Source of the DNA: Candidatus Wallbacteria bacterium
GTDB taxonomy: Bacteria; Muiribacteriota; UBA9980
Direction of reading: 5' to 3'
DNA: 64,000 nucleotides
NCBI GenBank assembly: GCA_041441465.1
Contig: JASDSY010000010.1
Span: forward strand, 105,883-169,882
Of the stretch, positions 2,656 through 60,075 are shown one piece after another (the first letter of the stretch is position 1; every line of letters begins with the position of its first letter). The position numbers and the translations under genes were made by a program. A model generated the notes under the pieces. That model was given only the letters and a program-made list of their open reading frames with translations, was not told the origin of the DNA and did no database searches.

Positions 2656-2679
2656 GGGCACGCGCTAAGCGCGTGCCCC
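2656..2679. other. perfect GC-rich hairpin (gggcacgcgc-taa-gcgcgtgccc) downstream of the carbamoyltransferase gene
   Basis: 10-bp perfect inverted repeat; no clear U-run afterwards, so terminator versus regulatory hairpin is unresolved. Confidence 0.4.
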
Positions 2680-3940: not shown

Positions 3941-4076
3941 ATAATATCCAAACGCTATCAATAAATTCAGGAATTCGGAAGAATATTCCGGTTCCTGAAT
4001 TTATCGGGCATAATAAAATTAATTGTAAACATTAAAACATAGTAAAATTAATTATAATAACGGAGGAAATAGTCAC

Positions 4077-5015
4077 ATGAAAAAGGCAGTAATTGCGGTA
4101 GGCGGAAATTCACTTATAAAAGATAAAAATCACCAGAGCGTTCCTGACCAGTACGCTGCGGTATGCGAAACCGTAAAACACGTTACCGGCATGATCGAAA
4201 AAGGCTATAACGTCGTCATGACGCACGGCAACGGCCCGCAGGTCGGCTTCATATTAAGGCGCTCCGAAATCTCTTCAACGGAACTTCACGAAGTTCCTCT
4301 CGATTCCTGCGGCGCCGACACCCAGGGCGCAATCGGCTATCAAATTCAGCAGGCTTTTTATAACGAATTTAAAAAACGCAACATCCAAAAAAAAGCTGCA
4401 ACCGTAGTAACTCAAGTTTTAGTTGACCGCGAAGACCCGGCGTTCAAAACTCCTACCAAACCTATCGGCTCATTCATGCAAAAAGAGGAAGCCGACAAGA
4501 AAGTAAAAGAAGAAGGCTGGAACATAAAAGAAGACGCGGGCAGGGGTTACCGCCGCGTTGTGGCATCGCCTATGCCTAAAGAAATTATTGAAATCGACGC
4601 CATAAAAAAACTTATCGATTCAGACTTCATCGTAATCGCTGTCGGCGGCGGCGGCATTCCAGTACTCAAAAAAGAAAACGGCGATTTGGTCGGCACAGCC
4701 GCAGTTATCGACAAAGATTTCGCATCAGCGCTTCTTGCGGCAAATGTTAAAGCCGATGTTTTCATGATAACAACCGGCGTCGAAAAAGTCTGCATCAACT
4801 ACAATAAGCCTGACCAGAAAACAATCGATAAAATGACAATGGCCGAAGCTGAAAAATACCTTGCAGAAGGCCAGTTCCCGGCAGGCTCGATGGGCCCAAA
4901 AATCCAGGCTGCTATTATGTTTTTGAAAAACGGGGGAGAAAAAGTAATAATCACCTCGCCTGAATTCATCGAAAAAGCGATAAACGGCGAGACTGGAACC
5001 GTTATCACAAAATAA
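4077..5015 (+). CDS. yqeA: carbamate kinase family protein
   Basis: 312 aa; N-terminal AVIAVGGNSL and VVMTHGNGPQVG, and IVIAVGGGGIP, are characteristic carbamate kinase motifs; RBS ggagg. Confidence 0.75.
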   Translation: MKKAVIAVGGNSLIKDKNHQSVPDQYAAVCETVKHVTGMIEKGYNVVMTHGNGPQVGFILRRSEISSTELHEVPLDSCGADTQGAIGYQIQQAFYNEFKKRNIQKKAATVVTQVLVDREDPAFKTPTKPIGSFMQKEEADKKVKEEGWNIKEDAGRGYRRVVASPMPKEIIEIDAIKKLIDSDFIVIAVGGGGIPVLKKENGDLVGTAAVIDKDFASALLAANVKADVFMITTGVEKVCINYNKPDQKTIDKMTMAEAEKYLAEGQFPAGSMGPKIQAAIMFLKNGGEKVIITSPEFIEKAINGETGTVITK

Positions 5016-5054
5016 TTTTTCACGTTTCATAAATAATCACAATTTTAACACTAA

Positions 5055-5082
5055 ACGGCCTTTTAACAGGCCGTTTTTTTTA
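5055..5082 (+). terminator. intrinsic terminator after the carbamate kinase gene
   Basis: stem acggcct / aggccgt with loop tttaac, followed by an 8-T run. Confidence 0.7.
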
Positions 5083-5123
5083 TTTATAGATACACCATTA
5101 ATAGTTTGATCATTTTCTATGAT

Positions 5124-5411
5124 GGGGGAGTCAAAGGGCCAATGGCCCTCTAACTCCCCCTATTCCCCCCATAACTCCCGGCTATTTTTTCTTTGTTTAT
5201 TTTTAATTACCGCAAAGCGCGGACACTGTCCGCTTACTTTGCGGTAATTAAGCATTCGCGCAAAAATTTGCGCGATATGAAAATATAAGATAATATAACG
5301 AGCAGGCGCGGAGGCCTGCCGATAGACAGCAGTAAAGGTTCACGCTTATTTTATTTGATTGCCAGATACACGCAAAGCAAGTGGATACAATCCACGCTTT
5401 ACGTGTATATC
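5124..5411. repeat. cluster of five independent GC-rich hairpin palindromes in an otherwise AT-rich intergenic region
   Basis: hairpins at 5124-5160 (gggggagt...actccccc with inner agggcc/ggccct), 5203-5251 (ttaattaccgcaaag...ctttgcggtaattaa with inner gcggaca/tgtccgc), 5257-5274 (cgcgcaaa/tttgcgcg), 5302-5319 (gcaggc/gcctgc), 5365-5411 (gatacacgcaaagc...gctttacgtgtat with inner gtggat/atccac). Confidence 0.6.
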
Positions 5412-5444
5412 AGGATGGGTGGGGGTTTCAAGGAATTGTCAAAA

Positions 5445-5520
5445 AAGATTTTTTCGGGACCGCGTTCGAAAATCCTTCCGGGATTTTCGCCGCTTCCGAG
5501 ATGTCCCTGCAAAAATCTTT
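5445..5520 (+). repeat. structured intergenic element, copy A (second copy at 59611-59730)
   Basis: shares with copy B the blocks ttttttc-(g/a)ggg, hairpin aaaatcc-(t/a)tccg-ggatttt, ccgct and ccctgcaaaaat; closing helix gggac/gtccc. Confidence 0.5.
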
Positions 5521-5626
5521 TTTGACTCTAATATACATTCAATTTTTTAAAAGGTGTTTTATGAAATAAACTTTTTGATTAGCCTCTGACAAAAAAATTA
5601 AAAATGCGATGTTTTTTTTAAATATA

Positions 5627-5635
5627 TGTTATAAT
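5627..5635 (+). promoter_or_regulatory. extended -10 promoter element TGtTATAAT upstream of the 5674 gene
   Basis: tgttataat about 39 nt upstream of the ATG; RBS aaggag at 5661-5666. Confidence 0.35.
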
Positions 5636-5673
5636 TTACCTGGAAAACATTTTAAATTTAAGGAGCATTTTTA

Positions 5674-6324
5674 ATGAGAAGTAAAATAGTTTTATTTTTT
5701 ATGATTTTGACGATATTAATTTCATCAATCCCGGCTAATGCAGCAAGATTGGCCGAAGATAAAGGAAAAGAAGTGAAGCTTGACGCAGGGCAGAAGAAAA
5801 AACTGAACACTTTTTTCAGTAATTTTGCCGAAACATATCTCGAATTTTTCGCTGAAGGCAAAATTAAAAATGAAGAACTGATAAGGTTTGGAATACTGCA
5901 CAATTCAATTAATAAACCGGCTAATATAAAAAAAGTTGATAATTATTACGGTGTTCTGGCTGAAAAAGACGTCGAAACCGCCGCTAAAAAATATTTCGGC
6001 GAAATAAAAATAACAAATAAGTCAATTCAGGATTATGAATATTCGAAAGGCAATTATAAAATTCCTTATGCGGACGGCGAGGCATATAATTTTTCGCAGA
6101 TAGAAAAATTAATCGATATAAGTGATAATTATTATATCGCCTATTTAAATAACTACATTGCTTCTCCAGGTTTTACAGGCGATCCGCATGCTGCAATCGA
6201 TAAATTAAAAAAAGGCGAAGACACTCCGGAATTAAAAGATAAAATAAAAGCCGTAATAAAAAAGGTTGAAGACGGCGGCCAAAGCCGTTATATCTTAATC
6301 GAATATTTAAAAAATCAACTATAA
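5674..6324 (+). CDS. hypothetical secreted protein
   Basis: 216 aa; signal-peptide-like N-terminus MRSKIVLFFMILTILISSIPANAA; strong RBS; no family recognised. Confidence 0.55.
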   Translation: MRSKIVLFFMILTILISSIPANAARLAEDKGKEVKLDAGQKKKLNTFFSNFAETYLEFFAEGKIKNEELIRFGILHNSINKPANIKKVDNYYGVLAEKDVETAAKKYFGEIKITNKSIQDYEYSKGNYKIPYADGEAYNFSQIEKLIDISDNYYIAYLNNYIASPGFTGDPHAAIDKLKKGEDTPELKDKIKAVIKKVEDGGQSRYILIEYLKNQL

Positions 6325-6436: not shown

Positions 6437-7288
6437 ATGGACGAAAATGATAATATAAACGCCAGCCAGAAGGAAATCGAAGGCCAGGAACATCAAAATT
6501 CAACACTCCGGCAAGAAGTGAAATTTTATATTCCGGAAATTACGAAAAATTGTGAACTTCCTGAAAATATAAAAATCGAGCTGGACACCTTTCTGGAAAC
6601 ATTGCTTAAATATTTATATGGCGGCTGTTTTCTTATAAGCTGTTATTTATTTTATGTAAGTAAATTCGGGCATTATACCGGACGCGGCAATTCAAGACAT
6701 TATATCCCTCCGGACCCGTCAGCTTTTCCTGACGCGCTATGGTTTATGGCCGGAGCTTTTTTATTTTTCATAATCGCATTAAACACCGATAATTATTACA
6801 TTTTAAACACCAAGCGAAAAACAATATATTATCACTTTAAATGCCTTTTCTGGAAATATATAAAACCGAGCCTGACTAACGATAAAATATTTGCAATCGC
6901 GGTAGACTGCAGGGAAAAACATCAAAAAAGCTCAAAATGGTGGGAATATGGAATATGCGCCGTTTCGAACGACGGAAAATTTACCGAATTAAGCGATTTT
7001 AAAAAAGATATTGAAAATCCGAACTGCCTTTCAGAACTGAATCACCAGGCAATGATAATGGCGATGGCGATGCAGTGCAAATTTGCCGAATGCCCTGAAA
7101 AACATTCGCTGCAAGCCGCAATGAACAATAATTCATTAGACCTGAAATATTTCGTGCCGCCGAAAGAAGAACCGCCGCCGCCGGCTCGACCTAAATATGA
7201 CTTCCTGCGGCTGATATTTACCGCTTTCCTGCTGATAACATTAGTCTCGGTAACGTTAATGGGATTAATGCTTTTACTTTGCAAATAG
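6437..7288 (+). CDS. hypothetical membrane protein, Cys-containing
   Basis: 283 aa; hydrophobic segments (CFLISCYLFYV, WFMAGAFLFFIIAL, C-terminal LIFTAFLLITLVSVTLMGLMLLL); RBS agagg; stop codon abuts the stop of the convergent radical SAM gene. Confidence 0.45.
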   Translation: MDENDNINASQKEIEGQEHQNSTLRQEVKFYIPEITKNCELPENIKIELDTFLETLLKYLYGGCFLISCYLFYVSKFGHYTGRGNSRHYIPPDPSAFPDALWFMAGAFLFFIIALNTDNYYILNTKRKTIYYHFKCLFWKYIKPSLTNDKIFAIAVDCREKHQKSSKWWEYGICAVSNDGKFTELSDFKKDIENPNCLSELNHQAMIMAMAMQCKFAECPEKHSLQAAMNNNSLDLKYFVPPKEEPPPPARPKYDFLRLIFTAFLLITLVSVTLMGLMLLLCK

Positions 7289-8644: not shown

Positions 8645-8676
8645 AGATGCAATTTAAAAATCTGGAGGCATAATCA

Positions 8677-9177
8677 ATGGATTTTATAAAAAAAAGAACT
8701 AAAAATATATTAATAAGCATCATTGCGTTTTTACTTGTAAGTCCGGGTTTTATCGCCGATTATTTGTTTGCGCAAAATAATTTAGTCAATGAAAAAACGG
8801 AAGAAGTAAAGGCAAATAAAATGCCGCTGCCGGAACCGCCGGTTTACGGAATGCCGCCGACGCGTTTTGATCATAACATGCCGGGCCGCAATATTTCGGT
8901 TATAAGCGCCAGGCCGAAAGTCAAAAAGAGCTTTTCAGGAATAATAGTATCCGCCGGCTCAGAAACACCTCTTCCAGGAATGATATTAGAAATACAACAG
9001 CTCAACTCCAGGACAATTACGAGTAAAACCGGAGCTTTCAAATTTCAGGAGCTTTACGCCGAAAAAGATTCGGATAAATTTATCATGACAATAACCAACT
9101 CAGAAGACAGAAGCATTTGCCGGACGATGGAAATAGAGTTAACTAAAAGCGGCAGTACTATTGAAGTTTCATTATAA
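8677..9177 (+). CDS. small secreted protein, paralog 1, with C-terminal carboxypeptidase-regulatory-like beta-sandwich motif
   Basis: 166 aa; signal peptide KNILISIIAFLLVSPGF; C-terminal GIIVSAGSETPLPGMILEI...TGAFKF pattern; ends KSGSTIEVSL. Confidence 0.6.
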   Translation: MDFIKKRTKNILISIIAFLLVSPGFIADYLFAQNNLVNEKTEEVKANKMPLPEPPVYGMPPTRFDHNMPGRNISVISARPKVKKSFSGIIVSAGSETPLPGMILEIQQLNSRTITSKTGAFKFQELYAEKDSDKFIMTITNSEDRSICRTMEIELTKSGSTIEVSL

Positions 9178-9252: not shown

Positions 9253-9293
9253 GATTTTTAAAACAAAGCATTATGAAAAATTCGGAGGAAATC

Positions 9294-9749
9294 ATGATAG
9301 AATTTATAAAGATAAAAGCTAAAAATATGTTAATAAGCATTATAGCGTTTTTACTTGTAAGCCCGTGTTTACTGACCGATTATTTATTCGCCGGCGATTC
9401 GGCTTTAAAGGAAAAAGTAAATATGGCAAACGAAGATATGGCAGCCACTAAATATGGCGGCCCGGCAATGAATTTTGACGAAGATATAATATTGGAAAAA
9501 CTTGTAGAATTATTCGGCGTGGTTACATCAAAGGAAACGAAAAAACCTGTCGAAGGCATTATTATAAAAATCCAGGATTCAAAAGCAAAAGCTGTAACCG
9601 GTAAAGACGGCATGTTTAAATTCCCTCCATGCCCGCCCAGATTAAAAAAAGTTACACTGGAAGTAAAAGACGCCAAAGACGAAAAACTTCTGCAGACCAA
9701 AGAAGTGGAGCTTAAAAATGCCGGCTCTACAATCGAAATTTCACTTTAA
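9294..9749 (+). CDS. small secreted protein, paralog 2 (start moved to RBS-supported ATG)
   Basis: ORF track starts at 9273, but ggagg sits 6 nt upstream of the ATG at 9294, giving MIEFIKIKAKNMLISIIAFLLVSP parallel to paralog 1; ends NAGSTIEISL. Confidence 0.6.
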   Translation: MIEFIKIKAKNMLISIIAFLLVSPCLLTDYLFAGDSALKEKVNMANEDMAATKYGGPAMNFDEDIILEKLVELFGVVTSKETKKPVEGIIIKIQDSKAKAVTGKDGMFKFPPCPPRLKKVTLEVKDAKDEKLLQTKEVELKNAGSTIEISL

Positions 9750-54954: not shown

Positions 54955-55203
54955 TATTTCTTACGCCTCTTTTATTTTATTGTTTTTATAAAATAAAAAA
55001 TGAAAATTAAAAATATAATTACACTTATATCTTCATATATTTCGTAATAATAATGAAAAAGTTTAGCTTTTTTTCAAGATAAAGCGGCCAGGACTTTGTC
55101 AGATGATTCGATGAGCCTGCCCGAGTCTGAAATAAGTATCTTTGCTTTCGGCACATGAAATGTAATAATAAAAAAATAGCAGTATGGGTGGAGGATTATA
55201 AAG

Positions 55204-55264
55204 GGGCGGTAAGGAATAATTCCTTACCGCCCACTTATCAAAAAAACAATGACTCATTGTTTTT
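55204..55264 (-). terminator. tandem hairpins downstream of the 55302-55856 gene
   Basis: perfect 13-bp palindrome gggcggtaaggaa-taa-ttccttaccgccc (55204-55232) plus an A/T-flanked hairpin aacaatg/cattgtt (55241-55264). Confidence 0.5.
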
Positions 55265-55301: not shown

Positions 55302-55856
55302 TTAATAAAACCTAATAAACATGCTTACCGCGTATTCAGCAATTCTAAAAGCCAGGTAAGAAATAACAACGGTTGCGACTATATTTTTAGGATCCCTCAT
55401 ATCATGCGCCTCTGCGCAGGCCACATATTCAACGAGTATCGTCAGCACCTGCATCGGATAATACAGAATGCCAAAAAATCTTATTAATGAACGGAAAAGC
55501 GCCAGCGGAAAAGAAATCAAGCCGAAAGCCACGGCTATATTTTGCGGAGTGCCGCGGCCGCCGAACGTCTGGCCTACAAAGTAAAAAGCAAGCATATTTA
55601 TGATCACGTTCAAATTAAAAGTTAAAAGAACGCCGGGAAGAATTTTATATGGTGAAATATAAACAAACTTATTATTGAGGTTAAAAGAATTAAACGCGCC
55701 GATAAAGCCCAGGGCTATGATGATATTTGCCAGGATAACTGAAGCCAGCGAATCAGCCAGAGCGTTTTCATCGACGGCTTTTTTTATGGCGCGCGGCAGT
55801 GATATGAACATTTCGATAAACCGGCCTATAAATTTATTTATATCAAAGTTTCCCAT
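55302..55856 (-). CDS. Yip1-like polytopic membrane protein (tentative)
   Basis: 184 aa with about 5 hydrophobic helices. Confidence 0.4.
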   Translation of the reverse strand: MGNFDINKFIGRFIEMFISLPRAIKKAVDENALADSLASVILANIIIALGFIGAFNSFNLNNKFVYISPYKILPGVLLTFNLNVIINMLAFYFVGQTFGGRGTPQNIAVAFGLISFPLALFRSLIRFFGILYYPMQVLTILVEYVACAEAHDMRDPKNIVATVVISYLAFRIAEYAVSMFIRFY

Positions 55857-57760: not shown

Positions 57761-59602
57761 ATGTATGAAGACCCGCATAAAATCCTGCAGCAGCATTTCG
57801 GCTATTCTAAATTCAGGGATGGCCAGCAGGAAATAATTTCGGCGATTATTTCAGGGCGCGACGCTCTGGGAATAATGCCGACAGGCGCAGGAAAATCACT
57901 ATGTTTTCAAATTCCTGCGCTTATGTTCAAAGGAACCGTCATTGTTATTTCACCGCTTATTTCTCTTATGAAAGACCAGGTTGAAGCTCTCCGGCAGGCC
58001 GGGTTGCCGGCGGCATTCATTAACAGCACGCTCACGGGACGCGAACGCAAAGAAATAGAAAATGACGCTCTGGAAGGCAAGTACAAGTTAATTTACATGG
58101 CGCCGGAGCGGCTTGAAAATCCTGAATTTTTGAAATTCTTAAACGATATTTCGGTTTCAATGGTAACAGTCGATGAGGCGCACTGCGTATCGCAATGGGG
58201 CCATGATTTCCGCCCGAGTTATCTCAAAATACCCAATATGATTGAAATGTTAGCCCAAAAACCTATCATTTCAGCATTTACGGCAACCGCGACGCCTATA
58301 GTAAAAAATGATATCATGCAGCTGCTTAAGTTAAATAATCCCGTCACGGTAGTAACAGGTTTTGACCGAAAAAATTTATATTTCGAAGTGAACAAGCCTT
58401 CAAGCAAATCTGAATTCACGCTCGACTACGTCCGGAAGAATTCCGGCAAAAGCGGCATAATTTACTGCATTACGCGTAAATTAGTCGAAAGCGTATGCGA
58501 CATTTTAAATTCCAACGGCATCCCCGCCGTACGGTATCACGCAGGATTATCTCAGAAAGAAAGAAGCGAGGCGCAGGAAAAGTTCATTTTTGAAGACGCC
58601 GGAATAATCGTCGCCACTAATGCTTTCGGCATGGGTATCGATAAATCAAACGTCAGGTTCGTATTGCACTATAACATGCCTAAAAACATAGAAAGTTATT
58701 ATCAGGAAGCCGGCAGGGCCGGGCGCGACGGCGAAAAAGCAGAGTGCATATTGCTCTTTTCAGGCCAGGACATCATCATGAATAAATTTTTAATTGAAAA
58801 CAGCGACAGGGACAAAGAAAAAAGCGGAGGCGAGCGTTCCGATAAGAGCGGCGAACTGCGAAAACTTTCTCAAATGGTAGATTATTGTTCCACGACATCA
58901 TGCATAAGACGCTACGTACTGAATTATTTCGGCGAAAATCATACTTATGAAAGCTGCGGCAACTGCGGAAGCTGTTTAAGCGCCCCGGCGGAACTTACCG
59001 ACATGACCGAATGCTGCCGGAAAATACTTTCGTGCATAAAACTTATGGGCGAGCGTTTCGGCCGCACTTTCGTATCAGAGGTTTTGCGCGGCTCAAATCC
59101 CGAACGCTCCAGTGAATTCGGATTTAATAGACTTTCGGTATACGGCGCTTTAAAAGAATATTCACAGGATTTTATAAAAGACACCATCTCGGCGCTTGCG
59201 GATGCCGGATATATAAAAGTTGACAGCAGCCAGTATCAAACGCTTTCATTATCATTTAAAGCCCTTAACTCATTAAACACAGGCGAAAAAATATTAATAA
59301 AAGCCGCTGAAATTAAAAGTAAATCCAAAGCAAAGGCCAAAACTAAAACCGCGCCTCAAAGTGCCGGAGACAGCAATTTATTTGACAGGTTAAGGGCATT
59401 GCGACGCGATCTGGCTCTTAAGCAGCGAGTACCGCCTTATCTGATATTTTCAGATGCCGCATTAAACAGCATGTGCCAATTACTGCCTTCGACCGATGAA
59501 GATTTTTTAGAAGTCAACGGCGTGGGCAGGCGGAAGCTTGAACAATACGGCGAGATTTTTATGGATGAAATTAAGCAGTTTCAGGATTCAAAAAGAGGTT
59601 AG
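57761..59602 (+). CDS. recQ: ATP-dependent DNA helicase RecQ
   Basis: 613 aa; FGYSKFRDGQQEII start, Walker A MPTGAGKS, DEAH box VDEAHCVSQWGHDFRP, Zn-binding Cys cluster, C-terminal HRDC-like region. Confidence 0.85.
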   Translation: MYEDPHKILQQHFGYSKFRDGQQEIISAIISGRDALGIMPTGAGKSLCFQIPALMFKGTVIVISPLISLMKDQVEALRQAGLPAAFINSTLTGRERKEIENDALEGKYKLIYMAPERLENPEFLKFLNDISVSMVTVDEAHCVSQWGHDFRPSYLKIPNMIEMLAQKPIISAFTATATPIVKNDIMQLLKLNNPVTVVTGFDRKNLYFEVNKPSSKSEFTLDYVRKNSGKSGIIYCITRKLVESVCDILNSNGIPAVRYHAGLSQKERSEAQEKFIFEDAGIIVATNAFGMGIDKSNVRFVLHYNMPKNIESYYQEAGRAGRDGEKAECILLFSGQDIIMNKFLIENSDRDKEKSGGERSDKSGELRKLSQMVDYCSTTSCIRRYVLNYFGENHTYESCGNCGSCLSAPAELTDMTECCRKILSCIKLMGERFGRTFVSEVLRGSNPERSSEFGFNRLSVYGALKEYSQDFIKDTISALADAGYIKVDSSQYQTLSLSFKALNSLNTGEKILIKAAEIKSKSKAKAKTKTAPQSAGDSNLFDRLRALRRDLALKQRVPPYLIFSDAALNSMCQLLPSTDEDFLEVNGVGRRKLEQYGEIFMDEIKQFQDSKRG

Positions 59603-59610
59603 TGTGCCAG

Positions 59611-59730
59611 ATAATTTTTTCAGGGGACGCTGCTAAAAATCCATCCGGGATTTTTAACCGCTCGGTGCTCCGGCGCCTCTCACCCATCCATGGGTTCCGG
59701 CGCCTTCGCAACACCCCTGCAAAAATTTCT
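59611..59730 (+). repeat. structured intergenic element, copy B (copy A at 5445-5520)
   Basis: same blocks as copy A; closing helix cagggg/cccctg; extra nested hairpin ggcgcc-[cccat-cc-atggg]-ggcgcc inserted relative to copy A; begins 9 nt after the recQ stop. Confidence 0.5.
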
Positions 59731-60075
59731 GTCACACTGTTAAATATTCCGAAAAATAATTCACTTATCATCACTATTTCCACCTAAAGAATAAACTTTG
59801 TCTATCGTTATAATTTTTATCCCTAAAACGAACTTGTGAAAAATGTGGGTTCGCAATTGTTCCAGATTTAGAATGATAAATAAATTTATGCTAATATGAA
59901 GGATTAAGCAAAAGCCCCGCTGCCCGTTCTATTTCAATACTCTCTTATTCTCATCTCGCCGGGCGTTCGCAGAGCTTCGAAAAATAACATTAAATTATCA
60001 TAAACAATATAAACGCTACCATATCAACATTTTTTAAAAATCGATATTTTTTTATTTCAAATTTTAAAAAAATTG

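What the first reader, a model, noticed from the sequence alone, without database searches (positions are those of the whole stretch)
5016..5673. 650-bp intergenic region unusually dense in perfect GC-rich palindromes
Seen: after a canonical terminator (5055-5082) the spacer holds five separate near-perfect hairpins (5124-5160, 5203-5251, 5257-5274, 5302-5319, 5365-5411), several with a palindrome nested inside a palindrome, followed by copy A of the structured element. They are GC-rich islands in AT-rich DNA and do not repeat each other. Inference: this is more than one terminator needs. Options are a highly structured noncoding RNA, a set of REP-like palindromic units, or stacked operator sites for dimeric regulators.
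Basis: seen in the sequence. Interest (0 to 1): 0.5.

Follow-up and report, generated by a model that had tools for sequence, protein, structure and literature searches.

The report
Mosaic hairpin repeat in Wallbacteria spacer
The hairpin-packed gap after the carbamate kinase gene is real, and its two ends are copies of structured repeats that recur between genes in Candidatus Wallbacteria genomes, so it is a lineage-specific relative of REP/BIME- or BOX-type repeats, not a unique RNA gene or a regulator-binding site.

Summary
The region 5100-5540 folds far better than shuffled sequence (z -10.7 on the plus strand, -14.2 on the minus strand), and no other spacer in the window has more than one strong hairpin.

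The hairpins are not all unrelated, one-off sequences. H1 and its C-rich tail (5113-5203) match a model built only from other genomes (E 2e-8). That module has at least 25 copies in related Wallbacteria MAGs and a second copy in the window at 55155-55247.

"Copy A" (5427-5534, minus strand) is a truncated member of a dispersed element with strong covariation. The element carries one to four hairpin modules inside a long stem. Copy B is at 59594-59744. Another strain keeps the full two-hairpin version of copy A.

In related genomes the H1-type module, a T-rich run, GC palindromes and the element sit together as a 420-780-nt composite in the same order. In the window the element is inverted relative to H1.

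H2-H5 have no detectable homologues. H2 and H5 are paralogues, and H2, H3 and H5 share a CGCAAA/TTTGCG stem.

Strains differ by deletions between short direct repeats, and the gene after arcC differs between the related genomes examined.

The function is untested.

The parts
5053..5084 (+). Canonical intrinsic terminator of the ygeW-like / M20 peptidase / carbamate kinase operon (9-bp stem, 6-nt loop, T-run).
   Evidence: DNA fold z -4.8
5113..5203 (+). HpA-type module: (T)n-GAT, then hairpin H1 (5124-5160), then a C-rich tail (5161-5186) that partly repeats the right arm of H1, then a T-rich run.
   Evidence: Model R2, built only from 26 copies in other genomes, gives this as its best hit in the window: 36.6 bits, E 2.4e-8. 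nhmmer with a profile of the whole composite hits 5118-5150 on the plus strand, E 0.02.
5203..5251 (.). H2: 15-nt perfect outer arms with a nested hairpin, GCGGAC-ACT-GTCCGC.
   Evidence: z -7.2. No homologue found elsewhere. Its left arm is orphaned by a deletion in strain L003.
5256..5275 (.). H3: a 20-nt palindrome, TCGCGCAAA-AA-TTTGCGCGA, sharing the CGCAAA/TTTGCG core with H2 and H5.
   Evidence: z -2.2; not significant alone
5302..5319 (.). H4: GCAGGC-GCGGAG-GCCTGC. It resembles a shortened version of the GC palindrome HpC of the composite repeat (L104: GCAGGCGCGCTCAGCGAGCGCGCCTGC).
   Evidence: Resemblance by eye only. The HpC model R3 does not list it at E <= 10. z -1.8 alone.
5365..5411 (.). 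H5: outer stem with a nested hairpin, GTGGAT-ACA-ATCCAC, a paralogue of the inner hairpin of H2.
   Evidence: z -7.1. Six substitutions in strain L198, and the inner part is deleted in L003.
5427..5534 (-). Element A: a truncated copy with one inner hairpin of the dispersed element, which resembles the TwoAYGGAY RNA motif. It has a 21-nt outer stem (5438-5458 / 5506-5526) and an inner hairpin at 5469-5487.
   Evidence: Model R1: 65.2 bits, E 6.7e-15, with the second hairpin missing. Strain L198 has the full version (110 bits). The window copy lost 38 nt between GCCGCTT direct repeats.
5627..5635 (+). Extended -10-like promoter box TGTTATAAT for the 216-aa gene (RBS AAGGAG at 5660-5665, ATG at 5674). 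It places the hairpin block outside that gene's likely 5' UTR.
   Evidence: Read from the sequence; inference. The consensus scan did not list it.
55155..55247 (-). Second HpA-type module in the window (hairpin GGGCGGTAAGGAATTATTCCTTACCGCCC plus a C-rich tail), 55 nt after the stop of the gene at 55302-55856. No element lies next to it.
   Evidence: R2: 26.6 bits, E 3.3e-5
59594..59744 (-). Element B: a full two-hairpin copy of the dispersed element. It overlaps the stop codon of the recQ-like ORF 57761-59602.
   Evidence: R1: 126 bits (it was in the training set). About 80% identical to copies in other genomes..

Best explanation
The spacer is one rearranged and partly decayed copy of a mosaic, protein-less, hairpin-rich intergenic repeat specific to Candidatus Wallbacteria.

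**What is shown.**
- The window comes from a Wallbacteria MAG.
- The left end of the block (H1 plus C-rich tail) and the right end (element A) each belong to a multi-copy family of structured repeats.
- In related genomes these two modules, a T-rich microsatellite and GC-rich palindromes form a 420-780-nt composite in the same order and at similar spacing.
- The element keeps its fold through many compensatory changes and carries one to four hairpin modules.
- The locus is a point where gene order breaks between related genomes.
- The locus varies between strains by deletions between 5-7-nt direct repeats.

**What is inferred.**
- The modules spread and shuffle as non-autonomous DNA, in the manner of REP/BIME, BOX or MITE repeats. 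Their hairpins would be kept because propagation or a host-level role (insulating transcription, protecting mRNA 3' ends) needs them.
- H2-H5 are species-specific hairpins in the variable middle of the composite. They arose by local duplication (H2 and H5 are paralogues) or by insertion of hairpins into loops, and are now decaying by slippage.
- Element A was inverted relative to H1, plausibly by recombination between its own inverted arms.
For: **Organism.** The carbamate kinase is 100% identical to a protein that NCBI names as from a Candidatus Wallbacteria MAG.

**Element family.**
- A scan for the inner hairpin found more than 118 stretches, clustered in ADurb.Bin243, JPNA_metabat.86, GWC2_49_35 and two unnamed MAGs. 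Many lie at contig ends.
- An alignment of 24 copies has 38 predicted pairs, 12 of them with compensatory changes.
- On 41 copies, 18 pairs change on both sides and 97.3% of cells are paired. No shuffle of 500 reaches this, and the slid controls are far lower.
- Copies fall into length classes of one to four modules.
- Model R1 finds A (65 bits) and B (126 bits) in the window and nothing else.

**HpA module.** There are 25 near-identical copies plus a divergent one in L104. Model R2, built without the window, hits 5113-5203 at E 2.4e-8 and 55155-55247 at E 3.3e-5.

**Composite.** The layout recurs in at least 22 loci. Strong hairpins flank nearly every element copy.

**Strain variation.** L003 lacks 5218-5306 (between GCGCGGA repeats) and the inside of H5 (between CACGC repeats). 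L198 and L002 carry a 15-nt TTTTTTC-flanked insertion. L198 has the full element A.

**Assembly behaviour.** Short-read contigs from both sides stop inside element A, at 5459-5495.

**Synteny.** The ygeW-like/M20/arcC operon is conserved, but four different arrangements follow arcC in the five related genomes examined.

**No encoded protein.** No protein family recurs next to the repeats. The neighbours checked are beta-lactamase-family proteins, histidine kinases and a response regulator.
Against: - H2-H5, about 200 nt in the middle of the block, have no detectable homologue anywhere. That they belong to the composite rests on position only. The HpC model R3 does not detect H4, and its best hit inside the spacer is 13 bits, E 1.6, over H2.
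- Element A is inverted relative to H1 compared with every composite seen in other genomes. Two independent modules may simply lie side by side here.
- Mobility is not shown. I found no empty site, no target-site duplication and no transposase.
- All three stem mismatches in H1 and H5 are C-A on the plus strand, which is G-U on the minus strand. That hints at selection on a minus-strand RNA, not on DNA.
- Only 64 kb of this genome could be read, so copy numbers in this species are unknown.
Confidence: 0.6

Rival explanations
1. The block encodes one long, highly structured non-coding RNA of about 430 nt, read from the minus strand (5534 down to about 5100). Element A is its 5' domain and H5-H1 are further helices.
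For: - The minus strand folds better than the plus strand (-186.3 against -174.8 kcal/mol; z -14.2 against -10.7).
- The two mismatches in H1 and the one in H5 are G-U on the minus strand.
- The two G-to-A changes in the inner stem of H5 in strain L198 also give G-U on the minus strand.
- Stems of the element family show 17 G-U against 8 A-C cells in that orientation.
Against: - No Rfam family reaches gathering score.
- No counterpart lies downstream of arcC in five relatives.
- Strains delete H2's right arm, all of H3, H4's left arm and the core of H5.
- L198 also has a transversion that breaks H5 on both strands, and the A-to-G change in H2 is G-U only on the plus strand.
- H1 is oriented on the plus strand by its asymmetric tail.
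- No promoter or terminator was identified for such a transcript.
Confidence: 0.1
2. The hairpins work in cis on the arcC operon transcript. They would be back-up terminators, an insulator against read-through into the downstream gene island, or 3' stabilisers against exonucleases, as shown for some REP/BIME copies.
For: - The block begins 30 nt after the operon terminator and ends before the likely promoter of the next gene.
- HpA-type modules lie 8-98 nt after stop codons, co-oriented with the gene, in both window copies and both L104 copies.
- Element copies overlap or closely follow stop codons in B, L118, L090 and L021. The element's orientation is biased relative to flanking genes: 22 against 8, not all independent.
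Against: - None of H1-H5 is followed by a U-run on the plus strand.
- Across all copies, HpA is divergent from its neighbour as often as co-oriented (16 against 12).
- Hairpins are lost between strains with no change in the operon.
- This could be a side effect of the repeat and not a rival origin.
Confidence: 0.15
3. Element A/B, read from the minus strand, is a small RNA that sequesters a CsrA-type RNA-binding protein through GGA motifs in its hairpin loops. The other hairpins would be unrelated.
For: - The family has three invariant GGA motifs on that strand: GCGGA at the junction, and loops CCCAnGGAnGGG and UCCCGGAGGGA.
- Copy A gives a marginal hit to Rfam TwoAYGGAY (26.5 bits, E 0.02-0.1).
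- TwoAYGGAY has been proposed as a CsrA-binding sRNA (PMC4333381).
- G-U outnumbers A-C 17 to 8 on that strand.
Against: - The hit is below the Rfam gathering score (43 bits), and full copies give no hit at all.
- There are tens of copies per genome, most of them antisense to the flanking genes.
- No csrA gene was found in the sequence at hand (this covers only a fraction of any genome).
- No promoter or terminator was defined.
- It does not explain H1-H5.
Confidence: 0.1
4. The palindromes are stacked operator sites for dimeric DNA-binding regulators that control the downstream gene.
For: H3 is a perfect 9+2+9 palindrome of operator-like size.
Against: - The arms are 15-18 nt, GC-rich, separated by up to 19 nt, and contain nested hairpins.
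- They lie 220-500 nt upstream of the likely -10 box.
- No regulator gene is adjacent.
- Sites are deleted between strains.
- Two of the units are dispersed repeats.
Confidence: 0.03

Closest known systems
REP / BIME (bacterial interspersed mosaic elements) of Enterobacteria and Pseudomonas
   Same: - Extragenic position, often just after stop codons.
- Imperfect GC-rich palindromes clustered in mosaics with other short conserved motifs.
- Tens or more copies per genome.
- They break short-read assemblies.
- Presence varies between strains.
   Different: - The units here are larger: an HpA module of about 90 nt, an element of 110-260 nt and a composite of 420-780 nt.
- No conserved GTAG-type head and no RAYT gene were seen.
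- Four of the five hairpins in this spacer have no other copy.
BOX elements of Streptococcus pneumoniae (boxA-boxB(n)-boxC), and MITEs such as Correia or RUP
   Same: - Non-coding and modular, with a variable number of internal modules (one to four here).
- Long terminal inverted arms that fold into a stable stem.
- Dispersed between genes.
   Different: - No sequence relationship.
- No target-site duplication or parent insertion sequence was found.
- The loops carry invariant GGA (or, on the other strand, UCC) motifs.
- The stems show strong compensatory covariation between copies.
Rfam TwoAYGGAY RNA (RF01731), an orphan motif of Clostridiales, gamma-proteobacteria and human gut
   Same: - Two hairpins with A-Y-GGA-Y-type loops inside a long closing stem.
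- Conserved CAG...AG...CGG junction residues align for copy A.
   Different: - The score is below gathering (26.5 against 43 bits), and full copies are not detected.
- A different phylum.
- Variable module number.
- High copy number, and linkage to other repeat modules.

Membership tests
Rfam TwoAYGGAY (RF01731) | Covariance-model score at or above the gathering score of 43 bits | tested here: not met
   Copy A scores 26.5 bits. Copy B and eight loci with full copies give no hit at E <= 1-10. Sixteen loci give no hit at gathering score apart from a genuine one in Lachnospiraceae locus L046, 75 bits.
Rfam TwoAYGGAY (RF01731) | Two hairpins whose terminal loops carry AYGGAY, enclosed by an outer stem | tested here: inconclusive
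   On the minus strand, B has loops CAUGGAUG and CCCGGAUGG inside a long stem. The window's A keeps one hairpin only, while strain L198 has two.
REP / BIME | The same short palindrome present in many copies across the genome | tested here: inconclusive
   Met for the H1-type module: 2 copies in 64 kb and at least 25 in relatives. Not met for H2-H5, which have no other copy in the window, in about 0.36 Mb of related genomes, or among the other fetched loci. Exact H1 arms recur in JGI metagenomes only at this same locus, L198. The rest of this genome could not be read.
REP / BIME | Association with a RAYT (IS200/IS605-like TnpA) gene | not testable with these tools
   No recurrent protein was found beside the repeats in 42 loci, but the full genomes are not available.
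REP / BIME | Extragenic position, commonly at the 3' ends of genes | tested here: met
   All copies are intergenic. Window copies start 98, 55 and -8 nt from stop codons.
MITE | Terminal inverted repeats plus a target-site duplication | tested here: inconclusive
   The element has 21-nt arms that are 90% complementary. No duplication or empty site was identified. The composite as a whole has no terminal inverted repeats, except that HpA modules flank the spacer in inverted orientation in L104.
BOX-like modular repeat | Variable number of internal modules between conserved ends | tested here: met
   The distance from the conserved inner hairpin to the 3' closing motif falls into classes of about 69, 123, 176 and 237 nt. 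A 38-nt module is present or absent between strains.
Intrinsic terminator | GC-rich stem-loop followed directly by a U-run on the transcribed strand | tested here: not met
   Only 5053-5084 qualifies. H1-H5 lack a T-run on the plus strand. H4 has a weak one on the minus strand.
CsrB/RsmZ-type protein-sponge sRNA | Several GGA motifs in hairpin loops, a cognate CsrA protein, and its own promoter and terminator | tested here: inconclusive
   GGA loops are invariant on the minus strand. A csrA gene was not found in the sequence at hand, but whole genomes were not searched. No promoter or terminator was defined.

The most novel reading that the evidence does not exclude
The composite (HpA, T-rich run, GC palindromes, GGA-loop element) is an undescribed multi-copy family of structured RNA genes in Wallbacteria, not selfish DNA. 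Related versions occur in some Clostridia, and the orphan TwoAYGGAY motif would belong to the same class. These RNAs would carry one to four CsrA-type binding hairpins and tune a global RNA-binding protein by copy number and module number. This spacer would then hold one such gene caught in the act of losing modules.
Probability: 0.15. Interest if true: 0.65.

Novelty: new member of a known kind. Interest (0 to 1): 0.4.

Why it matters
For this window, a puzzling 650-bp gap becomes an ordinary but informative feature. It is a landing place or breakpoint filled with lineage-specific structured repeats. It should not be annotated as a riboswitch, an sRNA or an operator array.

More widely, Candidatus Wallbacteria is an uncultured phylum with no described repeat families. 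None of the 15 papers in the library that mention it has it in its title or abstract.

The element has unusually clean covariation and invariant GGA loops. It has tens of copies per genome and resembles the orphan TwoAYGGAY motif. That offers a way to test whether TwoAYGGAY-like RNAs are mobile repeats or protein-sponge RNAs.

These repeats also explain why short-read assemblies of these genomes break at such spacers.

Tried and rejected
- **Rfam at gathering score, whole window:** nothing.
- **tRNA and tmRNA scan:** nothing.
- **Rfam in permissive mode:** only miRNA-type hairpin noise and the marginal TwoAYGGAY hit.
- **BLAST of the spacer against the window:** only copy B's core.
- **BLAST of the spacer against 118 pattern-derived loci:** only the element.
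- **Plasmid and phage collections, distant mode:** no match.
- **Metagenome scan for the H1 arms:** 101 hits. All are single, non-palindromic chance matches except L198, which is the same locus.
- **Patterns for the shared H2/H3/H5 stem and for the H2/H5 inner hairpin:** no family elsewhere.
- **HpC model R3:** does not detect H4. Its best hit is the in-operon hairpin at 2640-2708, E 0.054.
- **Pseudogene remnant:** the proteins that follow arcC in relatives have no tblastn match anywhere in the window.
- **Orthologous spacers:** relatives carry other repeats or a plain terminator, not H1-H5.
- **csrA by tblastn:** none in the sequence at hand.
- **Recurrent neighbouring protein or transposase:** none.
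- **Integron attC sites:** considered and dropped by inspection, as there are no RYYYAAC / GTTRRRY cores.
- **Strand of action:** unresolved. G-U counts favour the GGA strand (17 against 8), while gene orientation favours the opposite strand being co-transcribed (22 against 8).

Full report
**Setting.** The finding lies between a carbamate kinase gene (4077-5015, plus strand) and a 216-aa gene with no Pfam domain (5674-6324, plus strand). The carbamate kinase is the last gene of an operon that also encodes a ygeW-like carbamoyltransferase and an M20 peptidase. It is 100% identical to a protein that NCBI names as from a Candidatus Wallbacteria MAG. Relatives at 86-91% identity include Wallbacteria GWC2_49_35 and bacterium ADurb.Bin243.

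- Region 5100-5540 folds at -174.8 kcal/mol on the plus strand against -110.8 +/- 6.0 for shuffles (z -10.7). On the minus strand it folds at -186.3 kcal/mol (z -14.2).
- Folded singly as DNA, H1, H2, H5 and element A are each far beyond shuffles. The short H3 and H4 are not.
- A sliding fold of all 64 kb shows that other strong hairpins stand alone in their spacers, and those examined are mostly hairpin-plus-T-run terminators. This spacer is the only cluster.
- One correction: the hairpins are not all unrelated. The inner hairpins of H2 and H5 differ by two compensated pairs, and H2, H3 and H5 share a CGCAAA/TTTGCG stem.

**Known families are excluded.** No Rfam family reaches its gathering score anywhere in the window, and there are no tRNAs. 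In permissive mode, the minus strand of copy A gives a marginal hit to TwoAYGGAY: 26.5 bits against a gathering score of 43. Copy B and full copies from other genomes give nothing. A genuine TwoAYGGAY (75 bits) was found in a Lachnospiraceae locus by the same search, so the search works.

**Element A/B is a dispersed, structured, modular repeat.**
- *Copy number.* Scanning 185,579 species genomes for the inner hairpin (AAAATCCNTCCGGGATTTT) gave more than 118 stretches. They are heavily clustered in ADurb.Bin243, JPNA_metabat.86, Wallbacteria GWC2_49_35 and two unnamed MAGs, often at contig ends. A different-looking family occurs in one Clostridiales MAG.
- *Covariation.* Twenty-four two-hairpin copies align to a consensus with 38 pairs, 12 of which show compensatory changes. 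On 41 copies fitted to model R1, 18 pairs change on both sides and 97.3% of cells pair. No shuffle of 500 reaches any measure, and the slid controls collapse.
- *Modularity.* Copies carry one to four hairpin modules.
- *Conserved motifs.* On the modelled strand there are three invariant GGA motifs, two of them in hairpin loops.
- *In the window.* R1 finds only B (59594-59744, 126 bits) and A (5427-5534, 65 bits, second hairpin missing). It finds nothing at H1-H5.

**H1 is also a repeat module.** Strong hairpins flank nearly every element copy in the related genomes. Printing those flanks showed a conserved composite of 420-780 nt. Its parts, in order, are:
1. (T)n-GATAA and hairpin HpA (GGGAAGGCGAGGTGCC...GGCCCCTCCCTTCCC).
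2. A C-rich tail.
3. A variable hairpin.
4. A T-rich microsatellite.
5. A perfect GC palindrome, HpC (GCAGACGCGCGC..GCGCGCGTCTGC).
6. Further hairpins.
7. The element.

Model R2 was built from HpA plus tail of 26 copies in other genomes. Its best hit in the window is 5113-5203 (plus strand), at 36.6 bits and E 2.4e-8. That is H1 with its tail TATTCCCCCCATAACTCCCGG. A second HpA module lies at 55155-55247 on the minus strand (E 3.3e-5).

The window spacer has the same order and spacing as the composite: HpA, tail, T-run, GC palindromes, element. The distance from HpA to the element is 306 nt, against 259-480 nt elsewhere. The difference is that element A is inverted relative to H1.

**H2-H5 remain orphans.** They sit where the composite has its variable hairpins and HpC. 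H4 resembles a shortened HpC of locus L104. Model R3 of HpC does not detect H4, and its best hit inside the spacer is 13 bits over H2. No copy of H2-H5 was found in the window, in about 0.36 Mb of related genomes, among the other fetched loci, or in plasmids and phages. The exact H1 arms recur in JGI metagenomes only at this same locus.

**Variation between strains.** Eight contigs of the same species (98.9-100% identical over shared sequence, apart from the spacer-spanning L198 at 94.3%) cover parts of the spacer.
- L003 lacks 5218-5306, a deletion between GCGCGGA repeats. This orphans the left arm of H2.
- L003 also lacks the inside of H5, a deletion between CACGC repeats.
- L002 and L198 carry a 15-nt insertion between TTTTTTC repeats.
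- L198 has the full two-hairpin element A (110 bits). The window copy therefore lost 38 nt between GCCGCTT repeats.
- L198 has six substitutions in H5, several of which break pairs.
- The spacer differs from L198 at about 2.8% of sites, against 1.6% in the adjacent gene (my count from the alignments).
- Short-read contigs from both sides end at 5459-5495, inside the element.

**Comparison between species.** The operon is conserved, but four different arrangements follow arcC in the five related genomes examined:
- an ankyrin-repeat gene in GWC2_49_35, a JGI contig (L237) and L242's relative;
- a 587-aa gene followed by a 1.25-kb non-coding stretch with one full composite and two partial elements in ADurb.Bin243;
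- a glutaminyl-tRNA synthetase gene in another JGI contig (L239).

Their spacers carry other repeats, not H1-H5. The proteins encoded downstream of arcC in those relatives have no match in the window. The spacer is therefore a point where gene order breaks.

**Mechanism.** I read the block as a rearranged, decaying copy of a protein-less mosaic repeat, comparable to BIME or BOX elements. No transposase or other recurrent protein lies beside the copies.

The strand of action is unresolved. G-U pairs favour the GGA strand (17 against 8). The element, however, is antisense to co-directional flanking genes in 22 of 30 cases. HpA shows no orientation rule (16 against 12).

A CsrA-sponge role has been proposed for TwoAYGGAY (PMC4333381). 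It cannot be tested here: no csrA gene is in the sequence at hand.

A likely extended -10 box (TGTTATAAT, 5627-5635) places the block outside the 5' UTR of the next gene (inference).

**Verdict.** The spacer holds a new member of a known kind of element, in a phylum where none has been described in the literature library.

Noticed in passing
window 5674-6324 (also 6437-7288, 8677-9177, 9273-9749): Homologues of the 216-aa protein (39-48% identity) sit 60-70 nt after giant Rhs/YD-repeat toxin genes in other contigs (L127, L129, L130). The gene here therefore looks like an orphan immunity-type gene in a small variable island. Two downstream ORFs share a 116-nt repeat at their starts (8656-8771 and 9276-9391, 78% identical).
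   Followed up: partly
window 59594-59744: The full element copy B begins inside the stop codon region of the recQ-like ORF (57761-59602). Its outer stem includes the TAG.
   Followed up: partly
window 55155-55247 (minus strand): A solo HpA-type module lies 55 nt after a gene end, preceded by a small AT-rich hairpin plus T-run. No element or GC palindrome lies next to it.
   Followed up: partly
window 2656-2678 and 3961-4006: Strong hairpins without T-runs lie inside the operon, between its genes. GGGCACGCGCTAAGCGCGTGCCC is the best window hit of the HpC model (18 bits, E 0.054). There is also a nested palindrome, AAATTCAGGAATTCGGAAGAATATTCCGGTTCCTGAATTT.
   Followed up: no
L235 4937-5176, L237 4937-5157, L242 2404-2577: In GWC2_49_35-type relatives the spacer after arcC is a long imperfect inverted repeat built from GGAGAG / TAGTGCATAG-type units (-78.6 kcal/mol for 240 nt). 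Related units flank the partial elements in ADurb.Bin243 (L233 7560-7900). This is a further repeat family.
   Followed up: no
L118 7457-7725 (minus strand): In an AT-rich relative, the loop of the HpA stem (AAGGGAAAGG...CCTTTCCCTT) holds about 95 nt of further nested hairpins. One of them has a CCAGGGAUGG loop. So insertion of hairpins into hairpin loops recurs in this family.
   Followed up: no
L104 1668-2845: Two HpA modules in inverted orientation bracket a 1.2-kb spacer between convergent genes. Each lies 8-16 nt after a stop codon, and one element lies between them.
   Followed up: no
L244 4744-4889 (IMG/VR UViG 3300037047_000294): A full element copy (136 bits) lies on a contig classed as viral, from the same metagenome as two Wallbacteria contigs. 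It may be a prophage, a phage of this lineage or a misclassified contig.
   Followed up: no
L009, L020, L027-L030, L098 and other loci of Clostridiales MAG CTOTU40347: At least 30 copies of a different structured repeat share the same inner hairpin (AAAATCCGTCCGGGATTTT). Rfam does not recognise it at gathering score (L020, L028 and L098 tested). Model R1 scores one copy at 29.5 bits.
   Followed up: no
L046 7178-7357 and 7501-7519 (also L036, L051, L089): In a Lachnospiraceae MAG a genuine TwoAYGGAY RNA (75 bits) lies 144 nt from the same hairpin. The hairpin's flanks recur in the four loci of that genome, so the hairpin-bearing segment looks multi-copy there.
   Followed up: no
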